37,242 nt of DNA, from assembly GCA_036021875.1 (NCBI GenBank), contig JAYXVG010000001.1:1-37242 (forward strand). Reading direction: 5' to 3'. The DNA is from Thermoplasmatota archaeon (GTDB lineage Archaea > Thermoplasmatota > Poseidoniia > Poseidoniales > Poseidoniaceae). Made by a program: the position numbers and the translations under genes. This document shows positions 1,178-31,857 of the stretch, piece after piece. Every line of letters starts with the position of its first letter. The first letter of the stretch is position 1. The notes beneath the pieces were generated by a model, which had not been told where the DNA came from, ran no database searches, and saw only the letters and a list, made by a program, of their open reading frames with translations.

Positions 1178-1238
1178 GAAATATACTCATTGATAATGTC
1201 TATCAAACCTTTGGCGGCATAGGGTCATTGTATGGCGA

Positions 1239-12949: not shown

Positions 12950-12986
12950 ACAATACATTAAATGCCAAGCAGGCAAAGTTCCTGCT

Positions 12987-12991
12987 GGTGA
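12987..12991 (+). promoter_or_regulatory. Shine-Dalgarno (GGTGA) for the subtilase gene
   Basis: ggtga lies 4 nt before ATG 12996, supporting that start over the TTG at 12894, which overlaps the giant ORF. Confidence 0.45.
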
Positions 12992-12995
12992 GGGC

Positions 12996-18765: not shown

Positions 18766-21288
18766 ATGGCAAATGCGAAGCCCGGTGTGCAGGAAAGAAT
18801 CTTGCTGCACTTGCTAGACTATTCTGATTACAAGAATAGTGTCGAGGTTCCATTCTCACTATCACAGATGGGTATTGCTAATGCAGTGGCGATCGCTCGG
18901 TCAAATGTACCAAGAGCAATTGCTGGGTTAAAGGATCAAGGGCTCCTCATCGAAAGACAGGCGCATGTCAAAGGTGTATCTAGAAAAAGGAAAGCATACT
19001 TCTTGACAGACTCTGGTAAGAATCTTGCAGAGGATACTTGGAATAATTTACGGTCATTTCCGGTAAGATGTATCCTGAATGATGGCAAGATAGAATCTTC
19101 AACTTTGGGAGAAATAAACACAATTTTGCCATTTACCATGCGCTCTGTAGACATAATCAGGTATATGGATGACAACTGTATTTTGGACTCAAGAACGCTA
19201 TCTGCAGACCTTATTGAACGAGATTTATCAAAGCACGTCGAGAAACAATTGGTAACAGCCCTTGGAGATTTACCAAGGCTTCGTCATTTTTACGGAAGGG
19301 AAAAAGAGTTGGATAATATGTTCAACCTGTTGGAGGCTAGGGCCACAACCCTACTAGTTCCGGGTATCGCCGGTATTGGTAAAACTACTATGGCAAGTAA
19401 GTTGATTGAACGATTCATGCATCGTCGCAATTTGATGTATCACCGTTGTCAAGACTGGGAAGGGTCAAGGGCATTTTTTGAGTCTATTGGAGAGTGGCTA
19501 GCAAATATCGGTGACTCTACGTTTGCTGATTACATTGCCACTACTCCGGTGCCTAAGCCTGCAGAGGCCGCTAATTTGTTAATCGATGCACTTGAAGGTA
19601 CACCGTCATTAATAGTAATTGATGATTTTCATAAAGTCGCAGACGCAACCTTACACCAAACCTTCCAGGCTATGGCATTGGGTTTGCTGGGTAGCGAAGA
19701 AAAAATTGGCTTAGTATTGTTTTCTAGGTCATTTAAGCCAGTAGTTCCTTCCAAAGATGCAGAAGGCCGAATAGCTAGTTTGGTTTTACCTCTAGACGGA
19801 CTAGACTCAGATTCAGGGCGTAATTTACTGAGTAGTTTTGAAAATCTCGAAGATGAACAATGGCTGTATATCCATGGAATCTCTCGTGGACACCCCCTTG
19901 TTTTGGAATTGATAAACCGAGGTGCGTCTGCGACTGCTTTTCATGAGACTTTGGAAAATTACGTCACTGTTGAGATATTTTCCAAGTTAAGCGCCGAACA
20001 AAAACGTGTCTTATCTGTGTTATCAATATTTAGGGAGCCGGTCTCAATCGATGCTCTATCTGAACAAAAACTGGATATCGATGTATTGGACTCACTAGTT
20101 GAACAAGGATTGGCTCGACAAGTAGATAGTGAAGTATATGATGTCCATGACTTGATTAGAGAATTTCTACTTCGCAGTTTGGACGAAGAATTGAAGATTG
20201 ACCTACACAACAAATGCAGCTCATGGTATCAAAAATTCAGTAGTGAGCCAGTTTTCACTATTGAGTTAATATTCCATTTAGTAAGCTCTGACAACATGGC
20301 AGAGGCAGCAGAAATAATTGTCAAGAACGGCAGAAGTCTAATTTCGCAAGGGCACATGGAGCTACTAGGGTTAATCGACTCACTAAATTCAACAGAGTTA
20401 TCAGATAGTGTGTCTACCAAGGTCAATCACTACAAAGGAGAGATTCTAGCACTTCTTGGAAAGTTTGAGGATGCTAAACAAGCCTTCCTAGATGCCCAAG
20501 AAACAGCCAGTGAGACAAAGGATGTTAATACTCAGGCTGAACTATTGTCTGCCTTAGCTGATATTTCGCTTAAGCAGGGTAATTTGGATGAGTCATTGAC
20601 AATGCACAGAGATGCACTCCAAATTTTCATCAAACTAAAAGATGCCATCGGTGCAGCGAGAAGTTACAATAACATGGGCTACATCTTGCGCAGGAAAAAT
20701 GACAAATCAAAAGCATTGGAATCATATGGTGAAGTTGAGGCTATACTCAGAGAGAATAATGACAGTGAGTTGATTGGTTCACAATTGATTTTGGCTAGAT
20801 CACTTATGGATTTGGGTGAGATTGAACGAGCTAGAGACCATGCTTTAGAAGCGTTCGATAAGACGGACAAGCTTAATGACAAACAGTTACATGCTAGGTC
20901 ACAGGCAGTGCTTGGAAGGTATTACGCAAAAGTTGGTGACTCAGATGTTGCATCGCACCACTACTCACAGGCATTGGAAGCTATGAACGAGGAAGGGGAC
21001 ATATTGGCAATGGTAGACATAACTATTCTATTGGGTGAAGTCTTACAGGATTCGGGTAAAAATGATGAGGCTATGGAACACTTTAGGGAAGCTCTCGTGA
21101 TTGCCGAAGCAAATGATTTACGAATGCAAATTGGTGAATTATTAATCCGGTTAGGTAGTGTTGCACCAGAGAAATCACGACGAATGGAATATTTACAAAG
21201 AGCCCTCTCAGTATTTAGAGAACTTGGGGCTAAATCTAGGATGCGTGAGGTTCAGACTAGAGTACACAATGCTGTGATGGGAAGGTGA
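18766..21288 (+). CDS. wHTH - STAND/AAA_16-type P-loop NTPase - TPR protein (MalT/AfsR-like signal-transducing regulator)
   Basis: N-terminal winged-helix-like segment: FSLSQMGIANAVAIARSNVPRAIAGLKDQGLLIERQ...KAYFLTDSGKNLAE. Then FYGREKELDNM..LLVPGIAGIGKTT (Walker A 19363-19386) and LIVIDDFHK (Walker B 19609-19626). The C-terminal ~300 aa are TPR-like repeats (ARSYNNMGYILRRKNDKSKALESY, ARSQAVLGRYYAKVGDSDVASHHYSQALE, MEHFREALVIAE). Confidence 0.8.
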   Translation: MANAKPGVQERILLHLLDYSDYKNSVEVPFSLSQMGIANAVAIARSNVPRAIAGLKDQGLLIERQAHVKGVSRKRKAYFLTDSGKNLAEDTWNNLRSFPVRCILNDGKIESSTLGEINTILPFTMRSVDIIRYMDDNCILDSRTLSADLIERDLSKHVEKQLVTALGDLPRLRHFYGREKELDNMFNLLEARATTLLVPGIAGIGKTTMASKLIERFMHRRNLMYHRCQDWEGSRAFFESIGEWLANIGDSTFADYIATTPVPKPAEAANLLIDALEGTPSLIVIDDFHKVADATLHQTFQAMALGLLGSEEKIGLVLFSRSFKPVVPSKDAEGRIASLVLPLDGLDSDSGRNLLSSFENLEDEQWLYIHGISRGHPLVLELINRGASATAFHETLENYVTVEIFSKLSAEQKRVLSVLSIFREPVSIDALSEQKLDIDVLDSLVEQGLARQVDSEVYDVHDLIREFLLRSLDEELKIDLHNKCSSWYQKFSSEPVFTIELIFHLVSSDNMAEAAEIIVKNGRSLISQGHMELLGLIDSLNSTELSDSVSTKVNHYKGEILALLGKFEDAKQAFLDAQETASETKDVNTQAELLSALADISLKQGNLDESLTMHRDALQIFIKLKDAIGAARSYNNMGYILRRKNDKSKALESYGEVEAILRENNDSELIGSQLILARSLMDLGEIERARDHALEAFDKTDKLNDKQLHARSQAVLGRYYAKVGDSDVASHHYSQALEAMNEEGDILAMVDITILLGEVLQDSGKNDEAMEHFREALVIAEANDLRMQIGELLIRLGSVAPEKSRRMEYLQRALSVFRELGAKSRMREVQTRVHNAVMGR

Positions 21289-21290
21289 AG

Positions 21291-21761
21291 TCACTGCGGT
21301 CGATTGACATCGATTGAAGTGATGCCATCAATGTGGGTTATCCAAATCATTTGAGCACCTGATAACTCTACCGAACCAGTATGAGTGCCAGATCCAGTCC
21401 CTGATATGAACACCTCAGTATCCAAAGAGCCTCCTTCATCGATCAAGATTAGTGAATTATCTGTTAATTCTATCGAAAATAAATTTTCGTCGGCTTCTGT
21501 TGCTCGCCACCAAACACATTCTGTGTATTCAATATCACCGAGACGACTTGCTTCGTCCGCCCGTTCAATCGCCGCTGAAAGATCATCAAGGTTCATCTGT
21601 ATTGCTTCTTCATTCCATCTCTCGCGCGTAGCCGTCTCAATATCCCATGTCCATATGCTAAAAACAGAGAGTAACAATACCCCCAGTAGGAATGTGAAAA
21701 TGTAGCCCAATTCGGTCGCTGCGCCTGAGACGTCTTTGACTCTGGTGGAATTTCTCATCAT
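21291..21761 (-). CDS. Small prepilin-like (class III signal peptide-like) protein, third gene of the coupled triad
   Basis: N-terminus MMRNSTRVKDVSGAATELGYIFTFLLGVLLLSVFSIW: charged head, then a ~22-aa hydrophobic helix. The ATG overlaps the upstream stop (ATGA, 21758-21761) and is preceded by a strong SD. Confidence 0.6.
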   Translation of the reverse strand: MMRNSTRVKDVSGAATELGYIFTFLLGVLLLSVFSIWTWDIETATRERWNEEAIQMNLDDLSAAIERADEASRLGDIEYTECVWWRATEADENLFSIELTDNSLILIDEGGSLDTEVFISGTGSGTHTGSVELSGAQMIWITHIDGITSIDVNRPQ

Positions 21762-23983
21762 TCTATCGCCTCCTCCATAGTTACATCTAGTGACGACAGT
21801 TGCAGACTGAACTGAATTTGTTCACCATTGGTATGCCACACGGCCTCAGAAGTTCCAATACTCGGGTCTGGAACCCATCCAACATAATCAGTTAGCAAAT
21901 CTAAGTTGCCAGGATAAATCGTCCAATCAAGGCTCTGGTCTAATCCACTCGCTGCTGAATTAGCGATTGCTGAGCCATATGGGCTATACCACCCTCTTCT
22001 AACCTCATAAGATATTTCAGATGCTAACGATTCACGGTAGGCTAATTCAATGTCTAAGTTCATCAATCCAGAGCCAACGGTACTATCTGAGGTCGGGTTC
22101 AGCGCTGGTATTGTAGAAGCAAATCTAGGACCAGGTCCAGATCTATCATTTGGCTGCTTCAATATAGTAGGCAAGAACTCTGGATGGTTAGTGAGAACCG
22201 CACCGTTGGAATATGCAACCTCCATACCAGTCACGGAGGAAGTAAACTCATAGGTTAGCCTCGATATATGAAATATCCAAGCTGACGCAACGGTGGTGTA
22301 GTCGGAAGAAACACCTCCAGCAATTAAATCAACAGAATAACTAGATGGGTGGAGGCCCTTGCTCCAAGCGTCCAGAATTTGTAGTTCGCTACGGCCGGCA
22401 ACAGTAGACCATGGAAGGTCGGTTGAAATCCAACCACTTGCTGTTGTGTCTATGCCGACACAGCGTTCCTCGCCATCGTGGCTCAGTTGGATAAGGCCTG
22501 AATCGCCGCTCAACCGGTAAACTCTCACTGGATGGCCTTCAGTGACTGTAATTTCATGAATTCCACTTTCCACACTAAATGTATGAAATTTGTTTTGATA
22601 GTCTGAGGTGTGATTGAAGCTGTTTTGACCGGAGTAATTCCAAGTTGTTTCAAAGCCTGCAATTTGTGTAGCCAAATTGTCCGAGGAATCATCGTTATGG
22701 ACAGTAATCAGATGTTTTTGGCCAGAGGAAAATCCAGTATCATATGCCGGTATCATGCTAAATCCAATACTGTTTTGATTCGATCGATTGTTATGCCAAT
22801 TGACAATTATTTCATTATCGACATCGATGATTGGTGATCCACTCATGCCAGATGGGGGCCATGATATTAACTCACTCGAAAGGCCTGGAATTGAAATTCC
22901 ACCACTTTGCCAAGTTGCTGTAGCGGTGGTATCGGATGGATTCGTAAGCTCGAGGTATCCTGTTAATTGTGGGGTCATAAATTCGGTTCCTAGGTAGGCT
23001 CCAGTGTTTGAATTAATATTGATTATCCCACTATTTCCGCTAGTGTCGGTGATGAGAATCAGTCTTGATTGGGAACTGGTAGTAACTGAAAGAATTCCTG
23101 GTTCAGTCAGCGTTATTGACTTATTCCAATAGGTTCCGGTTCTGGGATCATCATTTTCGGTGACAAAGCTCGTTTCTTCCAAACCGTTGATTTCGGCAGT
23201 AATCTTGTTCCCCGTTTTGCTGATTATTTGAACCACTGATTCTCCGGCGGGTATGGGAATTGTCCAAGACCTGCCACTACGATCTATTTTACTAGGATTA
23301 TCTGGAGCTACCATGGCTGCACCACCTAGACCGGAACTCCCGAAAATCACTAGTTCATGGCTCGACTCAACCATCAACTGGTTGAACGTAGTTACATCGA
23401 TACTTACAGACTCATCAACATTCATTTCCACTATTTCTGCGAGGGTTTCAACGTCAATCAGTTTGATTTTAATCGGGCCTAGAGGTGATGCTAATCCCTG
23501 ATTCGCAGATATTTCTATTGCATCAATCCAGTTAGGAATCGAATAATAGAATGGCCTTGTCGGTCCTAAACGCAAATCATCATAGCAAATCGCTGTTGTT
23601 ACGCTTTCAGGATGTTTAACTTCCACAGTATCATCAAAATCTAGTATTCCTTTCATTCTAAATGTGGTGTCGTCTAACCAAGTGGCTGAATACCACATGC
23701 CGCCGCGAGTGCTGTCCCAAGATAGGCTTCCATCAAGCGGAATTAACTCAACTTCAGTAGAATCGCCGGGCATACCATGCTCACTGAGAACTTCGGTTTG
23801 TTGGGCAAGAATCATCATTTGGGAAGACATATCATCGCGTTCTATTGAACCTTCCAGTTCTTCGATTATTGGTAACATCGATATGAGCATCAACCCAATT
23901 ATCGAAACCACACCGCCGAATAATAGAACCGTTGCGATAGCTGCTGAAACAGCGTTTTCATCACGTGTTAAGTTGTGTCTCAT
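21758..23983 (-). CDS. Large (741 aa) prepilin-like/class III signal peptide protein with a big extracellular domain
   Basis: N-terminus MRHNLTRDENAVSAAIATVLLFGGVVSIIGLMLISML resembles the archaeal pilin N-terminal signature (D/E-x-AVS-x-[VI]-[IG]-x-[VI]-L-[LM]). The rest is Ser/Thr/Gly-rich and looks beta-rich, with no further TM. The start overlaps the upstream stop (ATGA at 23980-23983), and ggtggag lies just upstream. Confidence 0.65.
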   Translation of the reverse strand: MRHNLTRDENAVSAAIATVLLFGGVVSIIGLMLISMLPIIEELEGSIERDDMSSQMMILAQQTEVLSEHGMPGDSTEVELIPLDGSLSWDSTRGGMWYSATWLDDTTFRMKGILDFDDTVEVKHPESVTTAICYDDLRLGPTRPFYYSIPNWIDAIEISANQGLASPLGPIKIKLIDVETLAEIVEMNVDESVSIDVTTFNQLMVESSHELVIFGSSGLGGAAMVAPDNPSKIDRSGRSWTIPIPAGESVVQIISKTGNKITAEINGLEETSFVTENDDPRTGTYWNKSITLTEPGILSVTTSSQSRLILITDTSGNSGIININSNTGAYLGTEFMTPQLTGYLELTNPSDTTATATWQSGGISIPGLSSELISWPPSGMSGSPIIDVDNEIIVNWHNNRSNQNSIGFSMIPAYDTGFSSGQKHLITVHNDDSSDNLATQIAGFETTWNYSGQNSFNHTSDYQNKFHTFSVESGIHEITVTEGHPVRVYRLSGDSGLIQLSHDGEERCVGIDTTASGWISTDLPWSTVAGRSELQILDAWSKGLHPSSYSVDLIAGGVSSDYTTVASAWIFHISRLTYEFTSSVTGMEVAYSNGAVLTNHPEFLPTILKQPNDRSGPGPRFASTIPALNPTSDSTVGSGLMNLDIELAYRESLASEISYEVRRGWYSPYGSAIANSAASGLDQSLDWTIYPGNLDLLTDYVGWVPDPSIGTSEAVWHTNGEQIQFSLQLSSLDVTMEEAIE
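21769..21776 (-). promoter_or_regulatory. Strong Shine-Dalgarno (GGAGGAGG) for the 156-aa gene, embedded in the last codons of the 741-aa gene
   Basis: Minus strand reads ctatGGAGGAGGcgatagaATGATG, a 7-nt spacer to ATG 21761. The same bases encode ...MEEAIE* of the upstream gene. Confidence 0.5.
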
Positions 23984-25059
23984 TTCTCCACCACAACCTC
24001 ATTAATTGAAACATCAAAATAAACCGGTTGTCCTGCTGAACTTACGCTTATTCCGTCTGCACCACTGGCTCTTTCATAGGGGGATAGACCAATGAACTCA
24101 TCGAGAGTTCCTGATGCTCTATTCATGGTATATTCAGACAGCCATTTGTCATCATATTGCGGCGATATAACTTGAGCAACAGAATTTGTCAGTGAATATC
24201 TCACATTGAAACATTCACCAGAGAAAGGGTTGATACTCCCCATAGACAATATATCAATACCCAAATGATTTGCGCTGCCTAAACTCCCGTTCACTTCGAT
24301 GTTGGTTAATATTATTGATAACCTAACACCACCAGTGGCCAAATTATCAAATTCAACTCTTGGGAACTTACTTATCTCCCAAGCCGAGTCGGCAAAATGT
24401 TCGATTCTTGCGTTATTTACCAAGTATATTTCATGCTCCCCGTTACCTAAACTTGTAATAATTCTCAGACCAGAGATGGTATATTTTACCGCTCGGTGTA
24501 TGGGGTCGTCATTTTCATTTAACACGGTGACAATATACCAATCTGTTAGTTGTAAATTATGCTCCACAAGCCCGTTATCCCCTGAGATAGGGAAAAATGA
24601 AATTCCATATTCATGCTGAATTGACACCGCTGATGCGGTTGAATTAACACTCTCTACTACGAAACTAGATGATGTAAAATCTGAAATCTTGATAATGTCA
24701 TCGGGTGATAAATCAGCGCTGATTGACCAAATTTCTAGGTTGCTTACACCTTGTAGCATGGAGGTTCGCATTCCCAATTTGTGCCGAATACCAGTTCCTT
24801 CGGGGGAGTCAGCAGCCACATCTATGCGATCTTCTAGACGGTCAGCGATACCATTTGCTGCATTCCAGTTTGTATTATCTTCAAAATCTGAAATGTATGG
24901 GTTAAGGAATACCCATACCCCACCCATTATCGAGACAACCATCGCCAGCATCATTATGACGCCCAAAACCTCACTGACTGCAGCGACATCTGGTTCGCTT
25001 CGCAGCCTATTCCTAAGCCGCTTATTGGGTGCCATGGTGTGCTCATGTTCTGGTATCAT
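23980..25059 (-). CDS. Prepilin-like (archaeal type IV pilin N-terminal domain) protein, 359 aa, first gene of the triad
   Basis: RLRNRLRSEPDVAAVSEVLGVIMMLAMVVSIMGGVWVFL closely matches the archaeal Pilin_N (former DUF1628) pattern AVSxVIGVILMxAIxV. An alternative start is M9 at 25035. Confidence 0.7.
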   Translation of the reverse strand: MIPEHEHTMAPNKRLRNRLRSEPDVAAVSEVLGVIMMLAMVVSIMGGVWVFLNPYISDFEDNTNWNAANGIADRLEDRIDVAADSPEGTGIRHKLGMRTSMLQGVSNLEIWSISADLSPDDIIKISDFTSSSFVVESVNSTASAVSIQHEYGISFFPISGDNGLVEHNLQLTDWYIVTVLNENDDPIHRAVKYTISGLRIITSLGNGEHEIYLVNNARIEHFADSAWEISKFPRVEFDNLATGGVRLSIILTNIEVNGSLGSANHLGIDILSMGSINPFSGECFNVRYSLTNSVAQVISPQYDDKWLSEYTMNRASGTLDEFIGLSPYERASGADGISVSSAGQPVYFDVSINEVVVEK

Positions 25060-25092
25060 TTATGCATTGACCTAGAAAATGTGCAAAAACTG

Positions 25093-25914
25093 TCAATCTT
25101 GCATCGGTTTTGGGGTCTGATTTGTCGATGAATTATCAGAAACTTTTCCAATGTAATGTGTCATTTCAGGTCCATCTTGCGTAGATATGTGTATGTCTCC
25201 GTCAAACAATTCTCCTATGTAGAATAATACGGTTGATTCGGCCAGGTATGGAGAGTTATTTTTTTCAGACAAGTGCGTCAATACAATATTACGCGTTTCG
25301 CTTGTACAGACTTCTGCGAGGAATTTTCCGGTTTGATTGTTCGATAAGTGGCCTCCTCTGCCTCTTATTCTCTCTTTCAAAGAATACGGGTATGGTCCAG
25401 AATTTAGTTTATCTTCATCATAATTTGCTTCGATAGATATATGCTCACATCCGCGGACATGCCTCACGAGTTCATCAGTCCAGGACCCCAAGTCAGTAAT
25501 TATTGCTGCTCTTTCGCCATGATAACTTGCCACGAATGCAACGTTATCTGAGCCAGAATGTGGTACTGGGACCGGCAATAAAGTAAGATGGTCCCCAATT
25601 TTAATCAAATCTAGAGAGTCAAAGTAAGATGTCAATTTAGGATCGAGGCTTAATTCTAGTGCTGTTCGTTGATTTGCAAGGATTCTTGTCTGCCACTTTT
25701 TCTGGCAAATTGCCGCACCCCCACCATGATCGCCGTGATGGTGGGTTAATAGGATACAGTCAATGTCAGTGGGCTTGATGTTTAACAATGCCAGACGTTT
25801 CTCTAATTGTGCACCACTAAAACCTTGGTCGATTAGCAGTTTATCTTCATCGGTTTCTAACAGCGTAGAGTTGCCTCTACTGCCAGTACCTAAATGAGTG
25901 ATTCGGAGCGTCAT
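25093..25914 (-). CDS. MBL-fold metallo-hydrolase (YycJ/WalJ-like subgroup)
   Basis: MTLRITHLGTGSRGNSTLLETDEDKLLIDQGFS, then ILLTHHHGDHGGG (HxHxDH motif, 25726-25743 on the plus axis). The track ORF starts at TTG 26004; in-frame ATGs lie at 25974 and 25914. I chose 25914 because family members usually begin just before the LGxGSxGN strand, so the boundary is uncertain. Confidence 0.75.
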   Translation of the reverse strand: MTLRITHLGTGSRGNSTLLETDEDKLLIDQGFSGAQLEKRLALLNIKPTDIDCILLTHHHGDHGGGAAICQKKWQTRILANQRTALELSLDPKLTSYFDSLDLIKIGDHLTLLPVPVPHSGSDNVAFVASYHGERAAIITDLGSWTDELVRHVRGCEHISIEANYDEDKLNSGPYPYSLKERIRGRGGHLSNNQTGKFLAEVCTSETRNIVLTHLSEKNNSPYLAESTVLFYIGELFDGDIHISTQDGPEMTHYIGKVSDNSSTNQTPKPMQD

Positions 25915-26103
25915 GCTAATACTAGAACCCCAGCGCGGAAGGGTATTGAATAAATCGCTTAACTTCACATACATAGCGACATTTTCTAGCAAGATTTCCG
26001 ACAATCAGGGAGAATATTTACTGATATTTGTCGGAACATCACTCCACCATGCTCTTAAGGGTAATCTTTGAGACAGAAATAGCGAAGAGTATTCCCAGCG
26101 ACA

Positions 26104-26112: not shown

Positions 26113-29100
26113 ATGAGAAGAAGTCAATCAACCCTTCTGACAACCCTTGCAGTGGTCATTAGCTTGCTCTTTATGTCGCAGTTCCCCACAATCTCGCCCG
26201 TATCAAATATACATCCCGATGACACGAATCAAGAGCGACCCCCAACAACCGATTCGGATGGAGATGGCATTCCAGATGTTCATGAGAATCTATTCGCCGA
26301 ATGGGTAAATGGAACTGCGGTAGATGGTAGGGGTTACTCAATGGAAGGTCTAGACAAAGATGACGCCTCTGACGCATTGTTGGATAATGATCAAGATGGG
26401 TTAAATGCAACAGAAGAGTATTGCTGGCCATATCCAGCAGAGTGCACAGACCCAGGTTTCCTTAGAGGCTTAACTGGTGTGGTAGACGGTGAGGGTATCA
26501 GGTCATATCTTGATCCACGTAAGTCTGATACTGATGGAGATGGAATGCCTGATGGTTATGAAGCATACATGTGTTTGCGAATCGGTGGCTTTGATGTATT
26601 TGCTCAGCGCTACCAGTGTAATGACTTCGATCCACTCAACGCCAGCGACGCTACGAAAGATCCTGACATGGACGGCTTTGATGTCAATCGAGATGGAATT
26701 ATGAATCAAAATGAATGGTATACCTCAAGTGAAGAATACATTCATGGTGCCCCTGCCAATCACACAACTGAGTTAGATGGTCTATGGTGCACTGCAACCT
26801 TGCCAGAAGGTGCTTTGCTGACAAACTGGCCGTACATTCCAACAGGAGTAAATGCCACCTTCCAAAATTTACTCCCAGCCTGTACGAACTCAGAATCGCC
26901 AGTTGGTGAAGACTTGTGGTTGGGGACTGACCCATTATTGAAAGATTCAGACCGCTACAATTGGGACGGTTTCTCAGTCCGTAGTTTGTTTCCCTCCTTT
27001 GGTGACGGTATTCCTGATGGTTGGGAGGTTCATTTTGGACTAGACCCGCTCAATCGAAGTAGTGCACTCCTCGATGAGGATTTCGATGGTTGGGATGAGA
27101 ATTATGATGGTATTTTATCACCTGATGTAAGCCGTACTGATACCGCTCTTGCTATTGGTGAGCAGCTATCGAATATTGAAGAATACAAGGTGTATTATGA
27201 TGAAGGGAATGATGTAATTGCCGGCCTTAAGTCTGTAGAATTTGACACTGATTCTTCAACCTTGTTTAATTTCCCGATCTCATTTGCTGTCACTGAGGAA
27301 GAACTCAGCATAATGCACCATGATGTAAGATCTTTGAACGTCGTGGATTCAACAATTTATGCAACAACAAAATATGGAGTGACCATAATTGATTACTCAG
27401 CACAGTCAAGTATCGATTATTGGATGCCGCAGGGAGTAATTCTACAAGATGCTGAGTTGCTATTTGACTCTGATGACAACCTTTACTCGATAGCCGTTGC
27501 GTCTAACTTCGGACTTGGAGTGGGTAGAATACTATCAGACGGTTCACTGGAAGATACCAAAGATTGGGATTGGTCCCAAACAGGATCTCTCCTTGAGATT
27601 GAGGAACTGGAGGTTAATAGCCCCAATAATCAGTTAATCGGCTTAGGTATATCGGGAACTGGCAACGTGTTTGAGGTCAGCAGTTCTGGCCTTATAGAGG
27701 AAGTAAATACTGTTAGCACGGCGATAACGAATCAACTGGCAACTGGTAATGCGACTGTTACTGACATTGAACACGGTTTAGCAAATGGAAATTTGACGTT
27801 ATTCATCGCCACCGATCGAGGATTGCTAATATCAGAAACCAACTCAGGTCGAGATGGTGATATTGCAGAATGGCGATTTTACTTCACTCAGGAAGACACT
27901 GGAATTTTCGCATCGATAAATGAACTGAGAACTCTGCCAGTTGGAAGCGACGAAAATCCAGCAGAAATCAGGGATATTCACCTTGATGGTCCTACACCAA
28001 GTAACCCTCAAGTTCTTTGGTTTGGGACACCCTCAGGTTTGCACCAGATGAGACTAATTGATAATGTAATTACCCACAGTGGATTGTTAGAAAATCCTGG
28101 TTCAGAGGAGATAAGCACAAGAGACATCAATAGTATAAGATCAATTCATACTACAGGCGACCAAATAATACTTGGTTCTAGTGCCGGAACATGGGTGGTT
28201 TCTGGAGATTACTCAAATGTATACGAAATCGATGAGCAGGAAATAATTCCCGGTTACATTACGCAAATAACCACGATTGGTGACTCTGAAAATATGACAA
28301 TATTTGGGGCTGCAGCTCCGGGGAAATATTCGAATCTAGAACTAATGAATCCCAAATCAAATGATTCTGATAGTGATGGCATACCAGATGGATGGGAGAT
28401 TGGTAACGGTCTAGACCCTACAGATCCGTGGGATGCATTGCTCGATTTTGACTTTGATGGTCTTGATTTAGATCAATCCGGGGACGGCATTTACGAGCGG
28501 TTATGGACCAACCTCGATGAATTTAGGTATGTTGAAAGAACTGAAGAAGGGTATAATTCAACCAATCCAAATGCTGGAGATACTGATGGTGACGGTTTAT
28601 CAGACGGGGCTGAATATTTCGGATTTTTTTATGAGAGCACTAATTTATGGTGTTACTATAATGTACAATTAGAATATATTTGTGATAGCCAGATTGGCGC
28701 CGCTGCAAACCAAACTTACCTGCAATCAGGTATTGCTGATGTAGGGACAGACCCGACAAATCATGATAGTGACGGTGACGGAATGCCCGATGGATGGGAA
28801 ATTGAAAATCGTCGCTGGGTAGGTTCAACATTCACTGGAGGGAATAACTGGTCACTGGACCCTAATCGAGCAGAGGATGCAACTTGGGACGCTGATGGTG
28901 ATGGATTACAGAATCTATGCGAATATCAGTGGAGTCAACTGAAATATCAAGCAATGGAAGGTTTACTTTTAGAGTCTCACGGAGAAAATATTTCAGGTGC
29001 AGAAAATTGGACAGAATCAGACCCGAATAACATTGATTCTGATGGAGATACACTGCCAGATGGCTGGGAAGCATCATATTCATGCAGTTGGGCACCTAGC

Positions 29101-31857
29101 AGAGCAGGAATCAATCCGCTTAATGGATCAGATGCGTTAAACAATCCTGATAACGATGGTTTTGACATTGATAGAGATGGAATTCTGCAAATCAATGAGG
29201 CGTTTGTAAATTATTTAGAATACCATTTGCGGGATGATTTATTCGACACTGAAAATCCTGTTGATTTTGACAATTTGCCCTTTGGCTTAACCACAGATTT
29301 GTTTGATAACGTTGGTCAAAACGGTTACCCTGAAGCATCATACTCCCAACGCGCCGCAGGATCATATCTTGCTAGCCAAAACCCACTCGATGAGGGCGCT
29401 TCTGACCCGCTTGACAGCGACTCTGACGAAGATGGAATGCCTGATGGGTGGGAGATTTGGTTCTCTAGGTGGGACGTTCTGCAGGATGAATGGACACTAA
29501 ACCCGCTCCAACCTGCAGACCGCTGGCAAGATGCTGACGATGACGGTATGACTAATTGGGAAGAGTATAATGCAATAGACCCATTGTTAACTGAAACTGA
29601 TGCAAATAGGAGTTCGCCAAAGTGGTTTGTTACAACAGTTGGTAGCGCATATACCTTTCAAGCGTGGGCTGGGGTTCAAACAGACTTGTCATTTGGTTCT
29701 TTTGTCAATGAAACACAGAGAAACCTGACTGGAATAACTGGTGACCCTAACAATGTAGATACTGATGGTGATGGGATAATTGATGGCGTAGAATTATTAT
29801 TCACTACATGGAATTCCTCGACACAAACCTGGACTCTAAATCCACTGACTCCAGGTGATGGCTTGTTTGATTCAGACGAAGATGGTCTGGTTGATTTGCA
29901 GGAGTTCGCGCTGGTAAATTCAAATCCCGACAACGGCATTGAGCATCCAACAGATGCTCCGCTATTGCACATAGACGGAGACCTATTGCAGCCAACAGAG
30001 AAAGCCCAAAGAATGTTCAATATGTTGATTTCCAAAGAAACTCGAGGCAAGAGGTTGTTGAATGATTTCAACGATTGGCAAAATGGAGAGCCTGCAAATG
30101 CATTTATTTCTATCCTGATGGGTATAACAGACCCAACCAACCCGGACACCGACGGAGATGGTATGTATGATGGATTTGAGTATTGGTTCGCAGAGTGGGA
30201 TTTGGAAAATAACCTTTGGAGTATTAACCCATTGATTGATGGTGATGTTTTATTGGACACGGATGGTGACAGTTTCGATTGTGATGGAGATGGTAATATC
30301 TCTCTTGAAGAGCGATTTTCAAATCTAAGAGAATGGGAATCACGAACCTGGGGTAAATACTCTGAACGTAACACAATTCCCCAGGAGGTAGGTATACTGA
30401 GCTTTGGTGATGATGCGATAAATGCGTATATTGAAGAGTTGGGTTACAGCTACATTGATGCAACGAGGGCGTTGTATGATGATTTTGCGTCAAAGAGTCC
30501 TGAAAGCGCAGACAGAATGCAGCGAATTAATTCCTACGACGAGAATAATTTCAACCGAACTCTGATTGGGGTTGCCGATCCAACCAGCACAGACTCAGAT
30601 GGTGATTCAATTCCTGATGGATGGGAATATTGTTATGCAATATATGGTATGCCAGATGTGACAACTCAGAATCATTGGGCAGCAAATCCAATTAATCCGC
30701 ATGATGTTAATTACGATGGTGACAGCGATGGTTGGTACGATAGAAATTCACTTGACATTCCCGCAACCCAAGGTATTTGGGAGGATCGAAACTTTATCGA
30801 AAGTGGCACAATCATTCAACCAGGACCTGGCTCCCTACCTTTTACCAACCTGATGGAGTGGAACAACAACACAAGGCCAGACTTAAATGACACAGATGCT
30901 GATTCTGTAACCTACATAACTCAAGTCATAAATGGTCAAGTCGTTGCTCACCAAATAGATTACAATCTCAGTGACGGAAGAGAGGTCTTCAAGTATGGCA
31001 TAAACCCAAATGATAATGATACTGATGGCGATATGCTACCAGATTGGTATGAATACAAAATGGCTTGGAATGAATCTAACGATAATTTTTCATCTTACCT
31101 GCAAATAAAGGTGGTTTGGATTGATTCACTAACAGGCGGTGAGTGCGATACAAACACTGTGTCATGTCTGCCTCTATCAGCTGAATCGGGCGTATTATCA
31201 AGGCCTGAATTACAATTTACCTGGTTCACTCTTGATCCTGCCGACCCAGTAGATGCAAACTACGATCCAGATAATGACGGCAACTATGATTGCTCAGGTG
31301 CGGGGTGTAGTTATGAGCCATATACTAACTTCCAGGAGTTCTACATGATTACGGATGAGGACCTTACTTCACCAAATGCCGTAAGGCTTGCCCCATTGGT
31401 TTATCAAGGCAGTCCAGTTGAAGAATGGTGGCAATTTAGGGGATACACATTAGGTCTTGGAGAGCCATCAGAGGCATCGACAAACTACCTAAAGATGGAC
31501 AAACAGTCATCCACTGATTTCCGCTATGTTTTAATCATAGACGATAACGATGACGAATTCTTAACCTTAAATCCCGATGATGACCAGATTTTACTATCTG
31601 GTGCACAAACAGATTTGTGGGAGATATATTACGCTAGCTCGCCACAAACCGCCCCAGTAAGGGCTGTGGGTGAACACGAACTTGGTTGGTATATGATGGA
31701 CTTTGACGATGATCACCTTGCAGAGGGTAGCAGCCCAATCAGTTGGGACACAGACGGGGATTGGATTGTTGACTGGTTTGAGGTTAATGACGACGAAGAA
31801 GATGGTTTGCGAGGCGATTCTTCACCGATAAGGTATGATTCGAGACAAACTGGGTAA
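26113..31857 (+). CDS. Giant secreted, highly acidic protein with ~20 thrombospondin type-3-like Ca-binding repeats (DxDxDGxxDxxE) flanking a beta-propeller-like core
   Basis: N-terminal hydrophobic signal (LLTTLAVVISLLFMSQF). Repeats seen by eye: DSDGDGIPDVHE (26251-26286), DTDGDGMPDGYE, DSDSDGIPDGWE, DTDGDGLSDGAEY, DSDGDGMPDGWE, DSDGDTLPDGWE, DSDEDGMPDGWE, DTDGDGIIDGVE, DTDGDGMYDGFEY, DSDGDSIPDGWEY, DTDGDMLPDWYEY, DTDGDWIVDWFE, and others. No C-terminal TM. Confidence 0.85.
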   Translation: MRRSQSTLLTTLAVVISLLFMSQFPTISPVSNIHPDDTNQERPPTTDSDGDGIPDVHENLFAEWVNGTAVDGRGYSMEGLDKDDASDALLDNDQDGLNATEEYCWPYPAECTDPGFLRGLTGVVDGEGIRSYLDPRKSDTDGDGMPDGYEAYMCLRIGGFDVFAQRYQCNDFDPLNASDATKDPDMDGFDVNRDGIMNQNEWYTSSEEYIHGAPANHTTELDGLWCTATLPEGALLTNWPYIPTGVNATFQNLLPACTNSESPVGEDLWLGTDPLLKDSDRYNWDGFSVRSLFPSFGDGIPDGWEVHFGLDPLNRSSALLDEDFDGWDENYDGILSPDVSRTDTALAIGEQLSNIEEYKVYYDEGNDVIAGLKSVEFDTDSSTLFNFPISFAVTEEELSIMHHDVRSLNVVDSTIYATTKYGVTIIDYSAQSSIDYWMPQGVILQDAELLFDSDDNLYSIAVASNFGLGVGRILSDGSLEDTKDWDWSQTGSLLEIEELEVNSPNNQLIGLGISGTGNVFEVSSSGLIEEVNTVSTAITNQLATGNATVTDIEHGLANGNLTLFIATDRGLLISETNSGRDGDIAEWRFYFTQEDTGIFASINELRTLPVGSDENPAEIRDIHLDGPTPSNPQVLWFGTPSGLHQMRLIDNVITHSGLLENPGSEEISTRDINSIRSIHTTGDQIILGSSAGTWVVSGDYSNVYEIDEQEIIPGYITQITTIGDSENMTIFGAAAPGKYSNLELMNPKSNDSDSDGIPDGWEIGNGLDPTDPWDALLDFDFDGLDLDQSGDGIYERLWTNLDEFRYVERTEEGYNSTNPNAGDTDGDGLSDGAEYFGFFYESTNLWCYYNVQLEYICDSQIGAAANQTYLQSGIADVGTDPTNHDSDGDGMPDGWEIENRRWVGSTFTGGNNWSLDPNRAEDATWDADGDGLQNLCEYQWSQLKYQAMEGLLLESHGENISGAENWTESDPNNIDSDGDTLPDGWEASYSCSWAPSRAGINPLNGSDALNNPDNDGFDIDRDGILQINEAFVNYLEYHLRDDLFDTENPVDFDNLPFGLTTDLFDNVGQNGYPEASYSQRAAGSYLASQNPLDEGASDPLDSDSDEDGMPDGWEIWFSRWDVLQDEWTLNPLQPADRWQDADDDGMTNWEEYNAIDPLLTETDANRSSPKWFVTTVGSAYTFQAWAGVQTDLSFGSFVNETQRNLTGITGDPNNVDTDGDGIIDGVELLFTTWNSSTQTWTLNPLTPGDGLFDSDEDGLVDLQEFALVNSNPDNGIEHPTDAPLLHIDGDLLQPTEKAQRMFNMLISKETRGKRLLNDFNDWQNGEPANAFISILMGITDPTNPDTDGDGMYDGFEYWFAEWDLENNLWSINPLIDGDVLLDTDGDSFDCDGDGNISLEERFSNLREWESRTWGKYSERNTIPQEVGILSFGDDAINAYIEELGYSYIDATRALYDDFASKSPESADRMQRINSYDENNFNRTLIGVADPTSTDSDGDSIPDGWEYCYAIYGMPDVTTQNHWAANPINPHDVNYDGDSDGWYDRNSLDIPATQGIWEDRNFIESGTIIQPGPGSLPFTNLMEWNNNTRPDLNDTDADSVTYITQVINGQVVAHQIDYNLSDGREVFKYGINPNDNDTDGDMLPDWYEYKMAWNESNDNFSSYLQIKVVWIDSLTGGECDTNTVSCLPLSAESGVLSRPELQFTWFTLDPADPVDANYDPDNDGNYDCSGAGCSYEPYTNFQEFYMITDEDLTSPNAVRLAPLVYQGSPVEEWWQFRGYTLGLGEPSEASTNYLKMDKQSSTDFRYVLIIDDNDDEFLTLNPDDDQILLSGAQTDLWEIYYASSPQTAPVRAVGEHELGWYMMDFDDDHLAEGSSPISWDTDGDWIVDWFEVNDDEEDGLRGDSSPIRYDSRQTG

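What the first reader, a model, noticed from the sequence alone, without database searches (positions are those of the whole stretch)
21291..25059. Orphan triad of translationally coupled prepilin-like genes (359, 741, 156 aa) with no pilus ATPase or platform in the window
All three consecutive minus-strand genes begin with a short charged head followed by a ~20-25 aa hydrophobic helix of the archaeal type IV pilin kind. These are DVAAVSEVLGVIMMLAMVVSIMGGV, ENAVSAAIATVLLFGGVVSIIGLML and DVSGAATELGYIFTFLLGVLLLSVF. The first is a near-consensus Pilin_N signature. The genes overlap by ATGA at 23980-23983 and 21758-21761, and internal SDs (ggtggag; GGAGGAGG at 21769-21776) imply fixed stoichiometry. 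Two of them are far larger than structural pilins (typically ~130-200 aa), so they look like tip or minor-pilin or pilin-anchored adhesin subunits forming a ternary complex. No PilB/ArlI-type ATPase, PilC/ArlJ platform or prepilin peptidase lies within 37 kb. From memory, similar sets of uncharacterised pilin-like DUF proteins accompany secretion ATPases in haloarchaeal loci. Here they sit inside a giant-adhesin block instead. This is my best candidate for an undescribed surface machine.
Basis: partly seen in the sequence, partly recalled or inferred. Interest (0 to 1): 0.75.

Follow-up and report, generated by a model that had tools for sequence, protein, structure and literature searches.

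The report
Trans-encoded pilin-like gene trio in marine archaea
Three coupled genes of a Marine Group II archaeon encode proteins with type IV pilin-like heads, distantly related to minor pilins that sit beside pilus motors in salt-loving archaea, so they are probably accessory or adhesive pilus parts encoded away from their motor, not a new kind of machine.

Summary
Three minus-strand genes (359/351, 741 and 156 aa) overlap by ATGA, follow Shine-Dalgarno-like runs, and each has one N-terminal hydrophobic helix. The window is from Poseidoniales (MGIIa) and holds no pilus ATPase, platform or prepilin peptidase.

The trio is confined to this order but found across it: 336 species genomes, and 162 fetched loci with one invariant nine-gene order. 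The residue before the helix is A/G in 82/82 and 113/113 sequences and A/G/S in 101/101.

Profile comparison links the first about 70-85 residues of proteins 1 and 2 to DUF7289 (probability 93-95%), and protein 3 more weakly to DUF7266. In two haloarchaeal replicons these families lie directly behind a T2SSE ATPase and a T2SSF platform. A third replicon has an orphan set fused to PKD and VWA adhesin domains.

Most likely this is a reduced, diverged minor-pilin or adhesin set served in trans. Published MGIIa genomes carry FlaK and two FlaI/FlaJ pairs.

Main caveat: the trio is equally conserved in MGIIb, where most genomes lack annotated FlaI/J/K. The extracellular domains have no structural relatives.

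Verdict: new variant of a known kind, moderate interest.

The parts
23980..25059 (-). Gene 1 (T1). The ORF is 359 aa; the probable true start is 25035 (351 aa). It is a pilin-like protein with leader ...SEPDVAA|VSEVLGVIMMLAMVVSIMGGV, a long N-terminal helix and an all-beta extracellular domain.
   Evidence: ORF. Pfam gives weak hits to DUF7289 (E 2.8e-4) and Pilin_N (E 6e-4). AF2 gives pLDDT 75, a helix at 25-83 and then beta strands. hhalign against haloarchaeal DUF7289 gives probability 92.7%, E 4.4e-7 over 70 columns. Position -1 is A/G in 82/82 sequences.
21758..23983 (-). Gene 2 (T2), 741 aa. It is a pilin-like protein with leader MRHNLTRDENA|VSAAIATVLLFGGV, a large multi-domain beta-rich extracellular part (aa about 85-575), and a very conserved C-terminal 170 aa that AF2 cannot fold.
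   Evidence: ORF. Pfam DUF7289 E 1.8e-5, N-terminal 80 aa only. hhalign against DUF7289 gives probability 94.5%, E 7.7e-8 over 85 columns. AF2 result. Foldseek finds only generic beta-sandwich or jelly-roll hits with TM below 0.2. The family is confined to Poseidoniales.
21291..21761 (-). Gene 3 (T3), 156 aa. It is a small pilin-like protein with leader MMRNSTRVKDVSG|AATELGYIFTFLLGVLLLSVF and resembles DUF7266.
   Evidence: ORF. The motif [AG]|A[AS]TE[LIM]GY is invariant in 113 unique sequences. Relatives give weak full-length DUF7266 hits, E 0.0017 and 0.062. hhalign against haloarchaeal DUF7266 gives probability 54%, E 1.3e-4 over 103 columns.
25052..25073 (-). Conserved TATA-like promoter box AGGTCAATGCATAAATGATACC, upstream of the probable gene 1 start. 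It implies the trio has its own short-leader or leaderless transcript.
   Evidence: The box is unique in the window, with 0 matches expected by chance. It is conserved across MGIIa, with a related box in MGIIb that lacks the upstream ATG. It lies 28 nt from the proximal start in 67 loci. Promoter function is inferred, not shown.
23980..23992 (-). Junction of genes 1 and 2: GGTGGAG (23992-23986) followed by the ATGA stop/start overlap (23983-23980).
   Evidence: Sequence. The 4-nt overlap is present in 76/80 related loci.
21758..21776 (-). Junction of genes 2 and 3: GGAGGAGG (21776-21769) followed by the ATGA overlap (21761-21758).
   Evidence: Sequence. The 4-nt overlap is present in 66/75 related loci.
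18766..21288 (+). Context only: an 840-aa HTH + STAND (AAA_16) ATPase + TPR regulator, convergent with gene 3. It is an invariant neighbour, and no functional link is shown.
   Evidence: Pfam. It is present next to the trio in 82/84 and 72/78 loci; the loci without it are ones whose contigs end.
25093..26004 (-). Context only: a metallo-beta-lactamase-fold protein 33 nt upstream of the gene 1 ORF. It is an invariant neighbour. Relatives have a hairpin and the promoter box between it and gene 1, so it is probably a separate transcript.
   Evidence: Pfam. Synteny. Intergenic alignment.

Best explanation
The trio is a lineage-specific, reduced and strongly diverged set of archaeal type IV pilin-like minor subunits. 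It consists of two paralogues with a DUF7289-type N-terminal module fused to novel extracellular beta domains (T1, T2), plus one small DUF7266-like subunit (T3). Proposed mechanism (inferred): the three are made from one transcript in near-equal amounts by translational coupling and inserted in the membrane by their N-terminal helix. A trans-encoded ArlK/FlaK/PibD-type prepilin peptidase would cut them after the conserved A/G. A trans-encoded ArlI/ArlJ- or TadA/TadC-type ATPase/platform pair would then use them as a low-copy priming or tip complex of a pilus-like filament. The 741-aa protein would present the adhesive or recognition surface. What is shown: gene structure, coupling, order-wide conservation, the conserved small residue before the helix, the helix-plus-beta architecture of T1, and remote homology of the N-terminal modules to families that sit in ATPase/platform operons in haloarchaea. 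What is inferred: cleavage, complex formation, incorporation into a filament, and adhesion.
For: ORFs, overlaps and SD-like runs are confirmed, and the overlaps are conserved in 76/80 and 66/75 loci. Each protein has a single N-terminal hydrophobic segment. Position -1 is A/G in 82/82 (T1) and 113/113 (T3) sequences, and A/G/S in 101/101 (T2); position -2 is E/D in 88% of T2. T1 gives weak Pilin_N and DUF7289 hits and T2 a weak DUF7289 hit. AF2 predicts T1 as a 59-residue N-terminal helix followed by an all-beta domain. T1 and T2 share only the N-terminal 43 aa with each other (probability 89%). hhalign gives T2 versus haloarchaeal DUF7289 at probability 94.5% (E 7.7e-8, 85 columns), T1 at 92.7% (E 4.4e-7, 70 columns), and T3 versus DUF7266 at 54% (E 1.3e-4, 103 columns). 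In Halobaculum halophilum and Haloferax mediterranei replicons the gene order is Pilin_N pilin, T2SSE ATPase, T2SSF, DUF7287, DUF7288, DUF7261, DUF7266, DUF7289, with overlapping genes. Haloarchaea also have an orphan set with DUF7266+PKD and DUF7289+VWA fusions and no ATPase within 9 kb, and a stand-alone DUF7289+DUF7305 protein. These show that the module is fused to adhesin-type domains and can be encoded in trans. Makarova 2016 (PMC4858521) describes pilins in trans, ATPase/TadC modules that swap pilin sets, and a duplication-prone minor pilin of variable length. MGIIa MAGs are reported with FlaK x1, FlaI x2 and FlaJ x2 (Orellana 2019 Table S4), and flaK is in 90% of MGIIa genomes (Tully 2019). 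A DUF1628 pilin is among the most transcribed MG-II genes (PMC5069720). The window's closest relatives (UBA229, UBA111, UBA128) are MGIIa.
Against: No hit reaches a Pfam gathering threshold. The homology covers only the N-terminal 70-85 residues of T1 and T2, about 45 of which lie beyond the hydrophobic stretch, and the T3 link is weak. The window's own copies lack a charged residue at -2, and -2 is charged in only 56% (T1) and 34% (T3) of family members. No ATPase, platform or peptidase is within 10 kb in any of 162 loci. The trio, its -1 A/G and the whole gene order are just as conserved in MGIIb. There, flaK is annotated in only 16% of genomes, and 3 of 4 North Sea MGIIb clusters have no FlaI/J/K. 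Foldseek finds no pilin, pseudopilin or archaellin among the neighbours of either model. Equal-stoichiometry coupling fits a complex but says nothing about a filament.
Confidence: 0.5

Rival explanations
1. The trio descends from pilins but no longer depends on pilus machinery. The three proteins stay anchored in the membrane by their N-terminal helix, cleaved or not, and form a fixed heterotrimeric envelope complex. This complex would work with the neighbouring giant surface glycoproteins, for example as an anchor, spacer or receptor in the cell coat. That would be comparable in logic to ArlF/ArlG or to pilin-signal substrate-binding proteins of Sulfolobus.
For: The nine-gene order (giant TSP3-like protein, MBL, trio, STAND regulator, beta-helix giant, S8 protease, giant AglB) is invariant in all loci that reach far enough, across MGIIa and MGIIb, down to 31% identity of T2. 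The trio is kept in MGIIb, where most genomes lack annotated FlaI/J/K. Coupled 1:1:1 expression is conserved. The T2 C-terminal 170 aa is the most conserved part yet is unfoldable alone, which suggests an obligate partner.
Against: Strict A/G at -1 is what a prepilin peptidase needs, and there is no obvious reason for it in a plain anchor. The relatives of the N-terminal modules sit in ATPase/platform operons. Sequons are not enriched in the trio, so there is no special tie to AglB. Conserved gene order may only reflect a stable core-genome region. MGIIb annotations come from incomplete MAGs and KEGG models and may miss divergent machinery.
Confidence: 0.28
2. The trio is an accessory set of the archaellum itself, for example a priming or anchoring set for the FlaB filament that MGIIa is thought to use for adhesion.
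For: All MGIIa genera have the archaellum operon (Rinke 2018, PMC6461757). JGI labels some T1 homologues 'flagellin-like' or 'FlaG/FlaF family'.
Against: No hit to archaellin or ArlF/G families appears in Pfam at E up to 1, and only an 11-bit TIGR02537 trace in NCBIfam. The trio is never next to fla genes in 162 loci. It is conserved in MGIIb, where only about a quarter of genomes have flaB/flaH. The closest families belong to a non-archaellum T4P locus.
Confidence: 0.1
3. The three are ordinary type II signal-anchor or Sec-dependent membrane proteins, and their resemblance to pilins is only compositional (a hydrophobic helix).
For: All family hits are below the curated thresholds. Position -2 is often uncharged. 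There are no structural matches to pilins.
Against: The profile-profile matches extend well past the hydrophobic stretch, to 70-85 columns at probability 93-95%. The shared motifs are specific: DERAVS- versus haloarchaeal DDRAVS-, and RAAATELGY versus RAAATTLGY. Position -1 is restricted to A/G/S in about 300 unique sequences. T3 matches DUF7266 in length and over nearly its full length.
Confidence: 0.07

Closest known systems
Pilin set of the haloarchaeal PilB3/PilB4-type (euryarchaeal clade 2) type IV pilus locus: DUF7287, DUF7288, DUF7261, DUF7266, DUF7289, directly downstream of T2SSE ATPase and T2SSF. Examples are Halobaculum halophilum NZ_CP058531.1 55760-64241 and Haloferax mediterranei pHM500.
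   Same: Both are overlapping, co-translated pilin-like genes. The N-terminal modules of T1 and T2 are homologous to DUF7289 (probability 93-95%), and T3 resembles DUF7266 in length, motif and profile. Small and larger subunits are mixed in both.
   Different: The trio has three genes, not five, and no DUF7287, DUF7288 or DUF7261 counterparts. The gene order differs: 7289-like, 7289-like, 7266-like, against 7266 then 7289. No ATPase, platform or Pilin_N major pilin is adjacent. The extracellular domains are unrelated. All Pfam scores are below threshold.
Orphan haloarchaeal pilin-like sets and singletons with adhesin fusions: Salinigranum marinum NZ_CP100462.1 (DUF7266+PKD/malectin, DUF7289+VWA) and the Natronorubrum bangense DUF7289+DUF7305 protein.
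   Same: The same N-terminal modules are fused to large extracellular domains (681, 764 and 513 aa, against 741 and 351 aa here). They are encoded with no ATPase within 9 kb.
   Different: Their added domains are recognisable adhesin folds (PKD, malectin, VWA). The T1 and T2 domains have no Pfam or PDB relatives.
arCOG02911-type minor pilin of euryarchaeal T4P (Makarova, Koonin and Albers 2016, PMC4858521).
   Same: It is described as duplication-prone, of variable length (about 250-550 aa), all-beta and FlaFind-positive, and as the signature minor pilin of clade 2 systems, with pilin sets often encoded apart from ATPase/TadC. T1 and T2 fit this description.
   Different: The equivalence of DUF7289 or T1/T2 with arCOG02911 was not tested here, because no arCOG profiles were available. 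T2 is longer than the quoted range.
Minor-pilin tip or priming complexes: bacterial GspI-GspJ-GspK and FimU-PilVWX-PilY1, and Methanococcus maripaludis EpdA-C (from my own knowledge, not tested).
   Same: The logic is the same: a few low-copy pilin-like subunits of unequal size, co-expressed, one of them large and carrying the functional surface, and encoded apart from the major pilin.
   Different: There is no sequence or fold similarity; Foldseek returns no pseudopilins. The bacterial sets lie with their machinery genes. The M. maripaludis set includes its own peptidase, EppA.

Membership tests
Archaeal type IV pilin-like proteins (class III signal peptide) | A short polar leader, then a small residue (G/A) at -1, then about 20 or more hydrophobic residues at the extreme N-terminus. 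| tested here: met
   Each protein has one N-terminal hydrophobic segment. Position -1 is A/G in 82/82 (T1) and 113/113 (T3) sequences, and A/G/S in 94/5/2 (T2), across MGIIa and MGIIb.
Archaeal type IV pilin-like proteins (class III signal peptide) | A charged residue at -2 (FlaFind-type [KRDE][GA]; the pattern is approximated from memory). | tested here: inconclusive
   The window copies have A, N and S at -2, and my regex does not fire on them. Across each family, -2 is charged in 56% (T1), 88% (T2) and 34% (T3) of sequences. Acidic residues at -3 and -4 are conserved.
Archaeal type IV pilin-like proteins (class III signal peptide) | A Pilin_N (PF07790) or TIGR02537 match above the curated cut-off. 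| tested here: not met
   T1 scores 21.0 bits against 25.2 for Pilin_N (E 6e-4) and 10.9 bits against 20 for TIGR02537. T2 and T3 have no hit.
Archaeal type IV pilin-like proteins (class III signal peptide) | A long N-terminal alpha-helix followed by a beta-rich globular domain. | tested here: met
   The T1 AF2 model has a helix at 25-83 and then about 19 strands, pLDDT 75. T2 has helices at 9-68 with low confidence, then a confident beta region at 85-575. T3 was not modelled.
Archaeal type IV pilin-like proteins (class III signal peptide) | Cleavage by a PibD/FlaK/EppA-type A24 peptidase. | not testable with these tools
   This needs N-terminal proteomics or a cleavage assay. The only available data are from the literature: flaK is annotated in 90% of MGIIa and 16% of MGIIb genomes.
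Archaeal type IV pilin-like proteins (class III signal peptide) | An assembly ATPase and a polytopic platform protein in the same genome. | not testable with these tools
   None is in the window or in 162 loci with 10-kb flanks. Whole genomes could not be scanned. The literature reports FlaI x2 and FlaJ x2 in MGIIa MAG clusters and 0 in 3 of 4 MGIIb clusters.
DUF7289 (PF23960), for T1 and T2 | A Pfam match above the gathering score covering the 238-position model. | tested here: not met
   T1 scores 20.9 bits and T2 24.8 bits against a cut-off of 27. Only model positions 2-59 and 2-80 are matched.
DUF7289 (PF23960), for T1 and T2 | Homology of the N-terminal module (leader, helix and first extracellular segment). 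| tested here: met
   hhalign gives probability 94.5% with E 7.7e-8 over 85 columns (T2), and 92.7% with E 4.4e-7 over 70 columns (T1).
DUF7289 (PF23960), for T1 and T2 | Position in an operon behind T2SSE and T2SSF, together with DUF7287, DUF7288, DUF7261 and DUF7266. | tested here: not met
   That arrangement is seen in two haloarchaeal replicons. It is absent from the window and from 162 Poseidoniales loci. Haloarchaea also have orphan sets.
DUF7266 (PF23928), for T3 | A Pfam match above the gathering score. | tested here: not met
   The window copy has no hit. The best relative scores 18.5 bits against 27.6, E 0.0017, over positions 2-123 of 145.
DUF7266 (PF23928), for T3 | Full-length profile similarity, the same size, and the N-terminal motif R-A-A-A-T-x-L-G-Y. 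| tested here: inconclusive
   hhalign gives probability 54% with E 1.3e-4 over 103 columns. The lengths are 156 aa against 147-150 aa. The motif matches by eye.
Archaellum accessory proteins ArlF/ArlG (Arch_flagellin PF01917) | A match to the archaellin/FlaF/FlaG family, and location in the arl/fla operon. | tested here: not met
   Pfam gives no hit at E up to 1. No fla genes lie in any of the flanks.
Bacterial minor pseudopilin tip complex (GspI/J/K type) | A pseudopilin fold, and formation of a ternary tip complex. | tested here: not met
   Foldseek against the PDB returns no pilin or pseudopilin for T1 or T2. Complex formation could not be modelled because no multimer prediction was available.

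The most novel reading that the evidence does not exclude
The trio may be a former pilus component that Poseidoniales have turned into a pilus-independent, three-subunit envelope module. In this reading it is hard-wired into an order-wide nine-gene cell-surface block: giant AglB oligosaccharyltransferase fusion, S8 protease, two giant adhesin-like proteins, and a STAND regulator. It would work even in MGIIb lineages that have lost prepilin peptidase, ATPase and platform. That would make it a new use of class III-type N-termini in the most abundant planktonic archaea of the surface ocean.
Probability: 0.2. Interest if true: 0.65.

Novelty: new variant of a known kind. Interest (0 to 1): 0.4.

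Why it matters
Marine Group II archaea are uncultured and among the most abundant surface-ocean microbes. How they attach to particles and algae is argued only from an archaellum operon and 'thrombospondin-like' genes. This trio is found across the order and is evolving quickly. It is a surface-exposed set that published MGII genome studies read here do not discuss. It gives concrete candidates for the adhesive or recognition end of an MGII filament, or for virus receptors. It also gives a simple test case: does a pilin-like set survive in lineages that lack pilus machinery? The haloarchaeal link found here offers a genetically tractable surrogate (Haloferax) for testing the DUF7266/DUF7289 module.

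Tried and rejected
1. Relatives of T2 outside Poseidoniales. An exhaustive HMMER profile search of 1.84 billion representatives found only about 13 full-length clusters plus fragments. It also found weak repeat matches (T2 aa 380-465) to cadherin/RTX-type repeat proteins that carry no information.

2. Fold matches. Foldseek against the PDB gave nothing below E 0.001 for T1. For T2 it gave only Cry, CBM and vicilin-type beta sandwiches with TM below 0.2. PDB sequence profile searches were empty.

3. A tie to the neighbouring AglB through N-glycosylation. Sequons in the trio are at or below expectation, whereas AglB and the 1914-aa protein are enriched, so this was rejected.

4. A shared regulatory box. 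The gene 1 promoter-like box occurs only once in the window.

5. A bacterial-type promoter and terminator scan. It gave nothing above shuffles and is not suited to archaea.

6. Walking off the window with edge genes. This gained only about 5 kb on the right (DnaJ and unannotated genes) and nothing on the left.

7. The T3 profile search in the 5.8-billion-protein set. The top 120 hits were all Poseidoniales, so the tail that might hold DUF7266 proteins was not visible.

8. Literature searches for DUF7266, DUF7287, DUF7288 and DUF7289. There were no papers.

9. Per-genome A24 peptidase counts in the Tully 2019 supplements. They were not retrievable.

10. ArlF/ArlG membership. It was rejected for lack of any family hit.

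Full report
**Observation.** The ATGA overlaps are at 23983-23980 and 21761-21758. GGTGGAG lies at 23992-23986 and GGAGGAGG at 21776-21769. Each protein has a single hydrophobic segment, at the N-terminus. One correction applies to gene 1. A conserved box (AGGTCAATGCATAAATGATACC, 25052-25073) is unique in the window. It lies 28 nt upstream of the second in-frame start in 67 related loci. MGIIb relatives keep a related box without the upstream ATG, and 58 of 144 loci have no start further upstream. The apparent 'MIPK' N-terminus is therefore probably promoter DNA, and gene 1 most likely starts at 25035 (351 aa). This also suggests the trio has its own promoter. Many relatives have a GC-rich hairpin between the upstream metallo-beta-lactamase gene and this box.

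**Organism and surroundings.** The window is archaeal: it encodes a CDP-archaeol synthase and an STT3/AglB homologue. Homologues are named Candidatus Poseidoniaceae or Poseidoniales. The closest genomes (UBA229, UBA111, UBA128) are MGIIa in Tully 2019 Table S1. The trio is flanked on one side by an 840-aa HTH+STAND+TPR regulator, a 1480-aa beta-helix protein, an S8 subtilase and a 3192-aa AglB fusion. On the other side are a metallo-beta-lactamase-fold protein and a 1914-aa Asp-rich giant. No T2SSE/ArlI ATPase, T2SSF/ArlJ platform or A24 peptidase is in the window. None is in the partial gene at the left end, judged by sequence inspection. None is in the about 5 kb beyond the right end seen in near-identical contigs.

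**Distribution and synteny.**
- A profile of the 741-aa family was searched against 1.84 billion representative proteins. It found only about 13 full-length clusters, down to 31% identity, plus fragments and nothing else meaningful.
- A scan of GTDB species genomes found relatives in 336 genomes. Nearly all listed hits carry Poseidoniales or generic archaeal MAG names, including the original MG-II assembly CM001443.1.
- The most divergent cluster carries a Candidatus Thalassarchaeaceae (MGIIb) name.
- I fetched 162 loci: 84 mostly MGIIa, and 78 from a scan seeded with divergent members. Every contig that reaches far enough has the same nine-gene order: giant protein, MBL, T1, T2, T3, STAND, beta-helix, S8, AglB.
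- Between the families the trio diverges faster (31-36% identity for T1 and T2, 36-51% for T3) than the STAND regulator (about 50-57%) and the MBL protein (about 50-59%).
- The 4-nt overlaps are kept in 76/80 and 66/75 loci.

Because the whole neighbourhood is frozen, however, synteny alone does not prove a functional tie to the adhesin genes.

**N-termini.** Unique N-terminal segments were compared across both families.

| Protein | Unique segments | Residue at -1 | Charged at -2 |
|---|---|---|---|
| T1 | 82 | A/G in 82/82 | 56% |
| T2 | 101 | A 94, G 5, S 2 | 88% (E/D) |
| T3 | 113 | A/G in 113/113 | 34% |

- Acidic residues at -3 and -4 are conserved.
- The family consensus sequences are DER[AG]|VSEVLGVIMLLAMV, RDEE[A]|VSAAVATVLLFGGV and RD(T/E)x[AG]|AATELGYIFTFLLGV.
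- The window's own copies have A, N and S at -2, so my FlaFind-like regular expression does not fire on them.
- Pfam gives only sub-threshold hits. T1 hits Pilin_N (21.0 bits against 25.2) and DUF7289 (20.9 against 27). T2 hits DUF7289 (24.8 against 27). T3 has no hit.
- Some T3 relatives hit DUF7266 nearly full length, at E 0.0017 and 0.062.

**Structure.**
- AlphaFold2 with family alignments gives T1 a 59-residue N-terminal helix (25-83) followed by an all-beta domain (pLDDT 75, pTM 0.68). This is the general pilin layout.
- T2 has low-confidence N-terminal helices and a confident beta-rich region at 85-575 (pLDDT about 90). Its C-terminal 170 residues have pLDDT below 30.
- That C-terminal tail holds 29 of the 67 invariant columns of the MGIIa+MGIIb alignment. 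It is the most constrained part of the protein, and it may fold only with a partner. This is inference.
- Foldseek against the PDB finds nothing for T1 below E 0.001, and only generic beta sandwiches (TM below 0.2) for T2. PDB sequence profile searches are empty.
- T1 and T2 are related to each other only over the first 43 residues (probability 89%), and T3 to neither.

**Link to a known system.**
- A non-significant tblastn hit of a T3 relative (E = 6) led to a Salinigranum marinum plasmid. It carries six overlapping genes: DUF7287, DUF7288, DUF7261-like, DUF7266+PKD+malectin (681 aa), DUF7289 (242 aa) and DUF7289+VWA (764 aa). No ATPase lies within 9 kb.
- Searching with its DUF7289 protein found Halobaculum halophilum and Haloferax mediterranei replicons. 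Their gene order is a Pilin_N pilin, a 931-989-aa T2SSE ATPase with PilB3-like extensions, T2SSF, then DUF7287, DUF7288, DUF7261, DUF7266 and DUF7289, all overlapping.
- Natronorubrum has a stand-alone DUF7289+DUF7305 protein.
- Profile-profile comparison then gives T2 versus haloarchaeal DUF7289 at probability 94.5% (E 7.7e-8, 85 columns). T1 scores 92.7% (E 4.4e-7, 70 columns). T3 versus DUF7266 scores 54% (E 1.3e-4, 103 columns).
- The matches run past the hydrophobic stretch, and the leaders are alike: DDRAVSDT... against DERAVSEV..., and RDERAAATTLGY against RDTRAAATELGY.
- This fits the euryarchaeal clade 2 systems of Makarova et al. 2016. Those have a multi-pilin variant (PilB4 type), a duplication-prone minor pilin of variable length, pilin sets often encoded apart from ATPase/TadC, and exchangeable modules (PMC4858521). 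The equivalence of DUF7289 with arCOG02911 is a lead, not a test.

**Machinery in trans, and the main tension.**
- For MGIIa, Orellana 2019 Table S4 lists FlaI x2, FlaJ x2 and FlaK x1 in each of four MAG clusters.
- Tully 2019 finds flaK in 90% of MGIIa genomes.
- Rinke 2018 finds the archaellum operon in all MGIIa genera.
- A DUF1628 pilin gene was the seventh strongest transcription start on MG-II contigs (PMC5069720).

So the window's lineage has a peptidase and two ATPase/platform pairs that could serve the trio. In MGIIb, however, flaK is annotated in only 16% of genomes, flaB in 26% and flaH in 29%. Three of four North Sea MGIIb clusters have no FlaI/J/K. Yet the trio, its A/G at -1 and the gene order are fully conserved there. 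Either MGIIb has divergent machinery that annotation missed, or the trio does not need it. I could not scan whole genomes with these tools.

**Explanation and rivals.**
- *Best reading (0.5).* A reduced, diverged minor-pilin-type set, with two DUF7289-type modules carrying novel extracellular domains plus one DUF7266-like subunit. It would be co-translated, cut by the trans-encoded A24 peptidase, and used by a trans-encoded ATPase/platform as a low-copy priming or tip complex. T2 would be the adhesive or recognition surface.
- *Rival 1 (0.28).* The same proteins now work as a pilus-independent, membrane-anchored envelope complex tied to the neighbouring giant surface proteins. This is favoured by the MGIIb pattern and the frozen nine-gene block. 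It is disfavoured by the strict -1 residue and the lack of sequon enrichment.
- *Rival 2 (0.10).* An archaellum accessory set. It is disfavoured by the absence of any archaellin-family signal and by the MGIIb distribution.
- *Rival 3 (0.07).* Plain signal-anchor proteins. It is disfavoured by profile matches beyond the helix and by the specific leader motifs.

**Novelty and value.** The kind of thing is known: a pilin-like set encoded away from its motor. The members are new. The family is restricted to one order, it falls below all curated thresholds, and its extracellular domains have no relatives. None of the MGII papers I read mentions it. Its place in an order-wide invariant surface-gene block, and its persistence where pilus genes are reported absent, are the unusual points. 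I rate it a new variant of a known kind, interest 0.4. The pilus-independent reading has probability about 0.2 and interest about 0.65 if true.

Noticed in passing
window 3371-12949 (+): A 3192-aa ORF has an STT3/AglB oligosaccharyltransferase domain at aa 414-819 and about 2300 aa of extra extracellular sequence (CarboxypepD_reg-like and other beta domains). It has 50 N-glycosylation sequons against 31 expected. The giant size (3172-3196 aa) is conserved in relatives. This is far larger than the roughly 600-1000 aa I recall for typical AglB proteins.
   Followed up: partly
window 3371-31857; loci L001-L162: The nine-gene order is giant Asp-rich protein, MBL, trio, STAND regulator, beta-helix giant, S8 protease, giant AglB. 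It is invariant in every one of 162 loci that extends far enough. This holds across both Poseidoniales families, down to about 25-35% identity of the surface proteins.
   Followed up: yes
window 21761-22279 (T2 aa 569-741): The C-terminal 170 residues of the 741-aa protein hold 29 of the 67 invariant alignment columns (17% of positions, against 4.6% in aa 91-568). AlphaFold2 nevertheless gives pLDDT below 30 there. This may be a partner-dependent fold. Two invariant cysteines (C133, C508) were also seen.
   Followed up: partly
window 26113-31857 (+): A 1914-aa secreted protein is packed with DxDxDGxxD-type (thrombospondin type 3-like, calcium-binding) motifs. It has no Pfam hit at E below 0.01. 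It is probably one of the 'thrombospondin' genes that MGII papers cite for adhesion.
   Followed up: no
L163 6895-14044 (Salinigranum marinum plasmid NZ_CP100462.1): An orphan, fully overlapping six-gene pilin-like set: DUF7287, DUF7288, DUF7261-like, DUF7266+PKD+malectin, DUF7289, DUF7289+VWA. No secretion ATPase or platform lies within 9 kb. It is a haloarchaeal parallel to the orphan trio.
   Followed up: partly
L059 (NZEQ01000036.1): A 72-kb contig deposited in a MAG labelled 'Verrucomicrobiales bacterium ARS100' carries the complete Poseidoniales nine-gene block. It is almost certainly mis-binned.
   Followed up: no
intergenic region between the MBL gene and gene 1 in relatives (e.g. L001, L113, L125, L155; window 25060-25092): Many relatives have a GC-rich perfect hairpin (e.g. 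CACCTCAGTATGAGGTG, CCCCCCTATGGGGGGG) just after the MBL stop and before the conserved promoter-like box. The window itself lacks a clear one.
   Followed up: no
window 12894-14210 (+): The S8 subtilase ORF as listed starts with TTG and overlaps the end of the AglB gene by 56 nt. Relatives are 404-409 aa, so the true start is probably downstream. The protein has an internal hydrophobic segment at aa 87-118.
   Followed up: no
window 1-1187 (-): A partial gene runs off the left end. The 395 aa seen have a Sec-type signal and a Ser/Thr/Asp-rich beta-looking sequence, so this is another surface protein and not a pilus assembly gene.
   Followed up: partly
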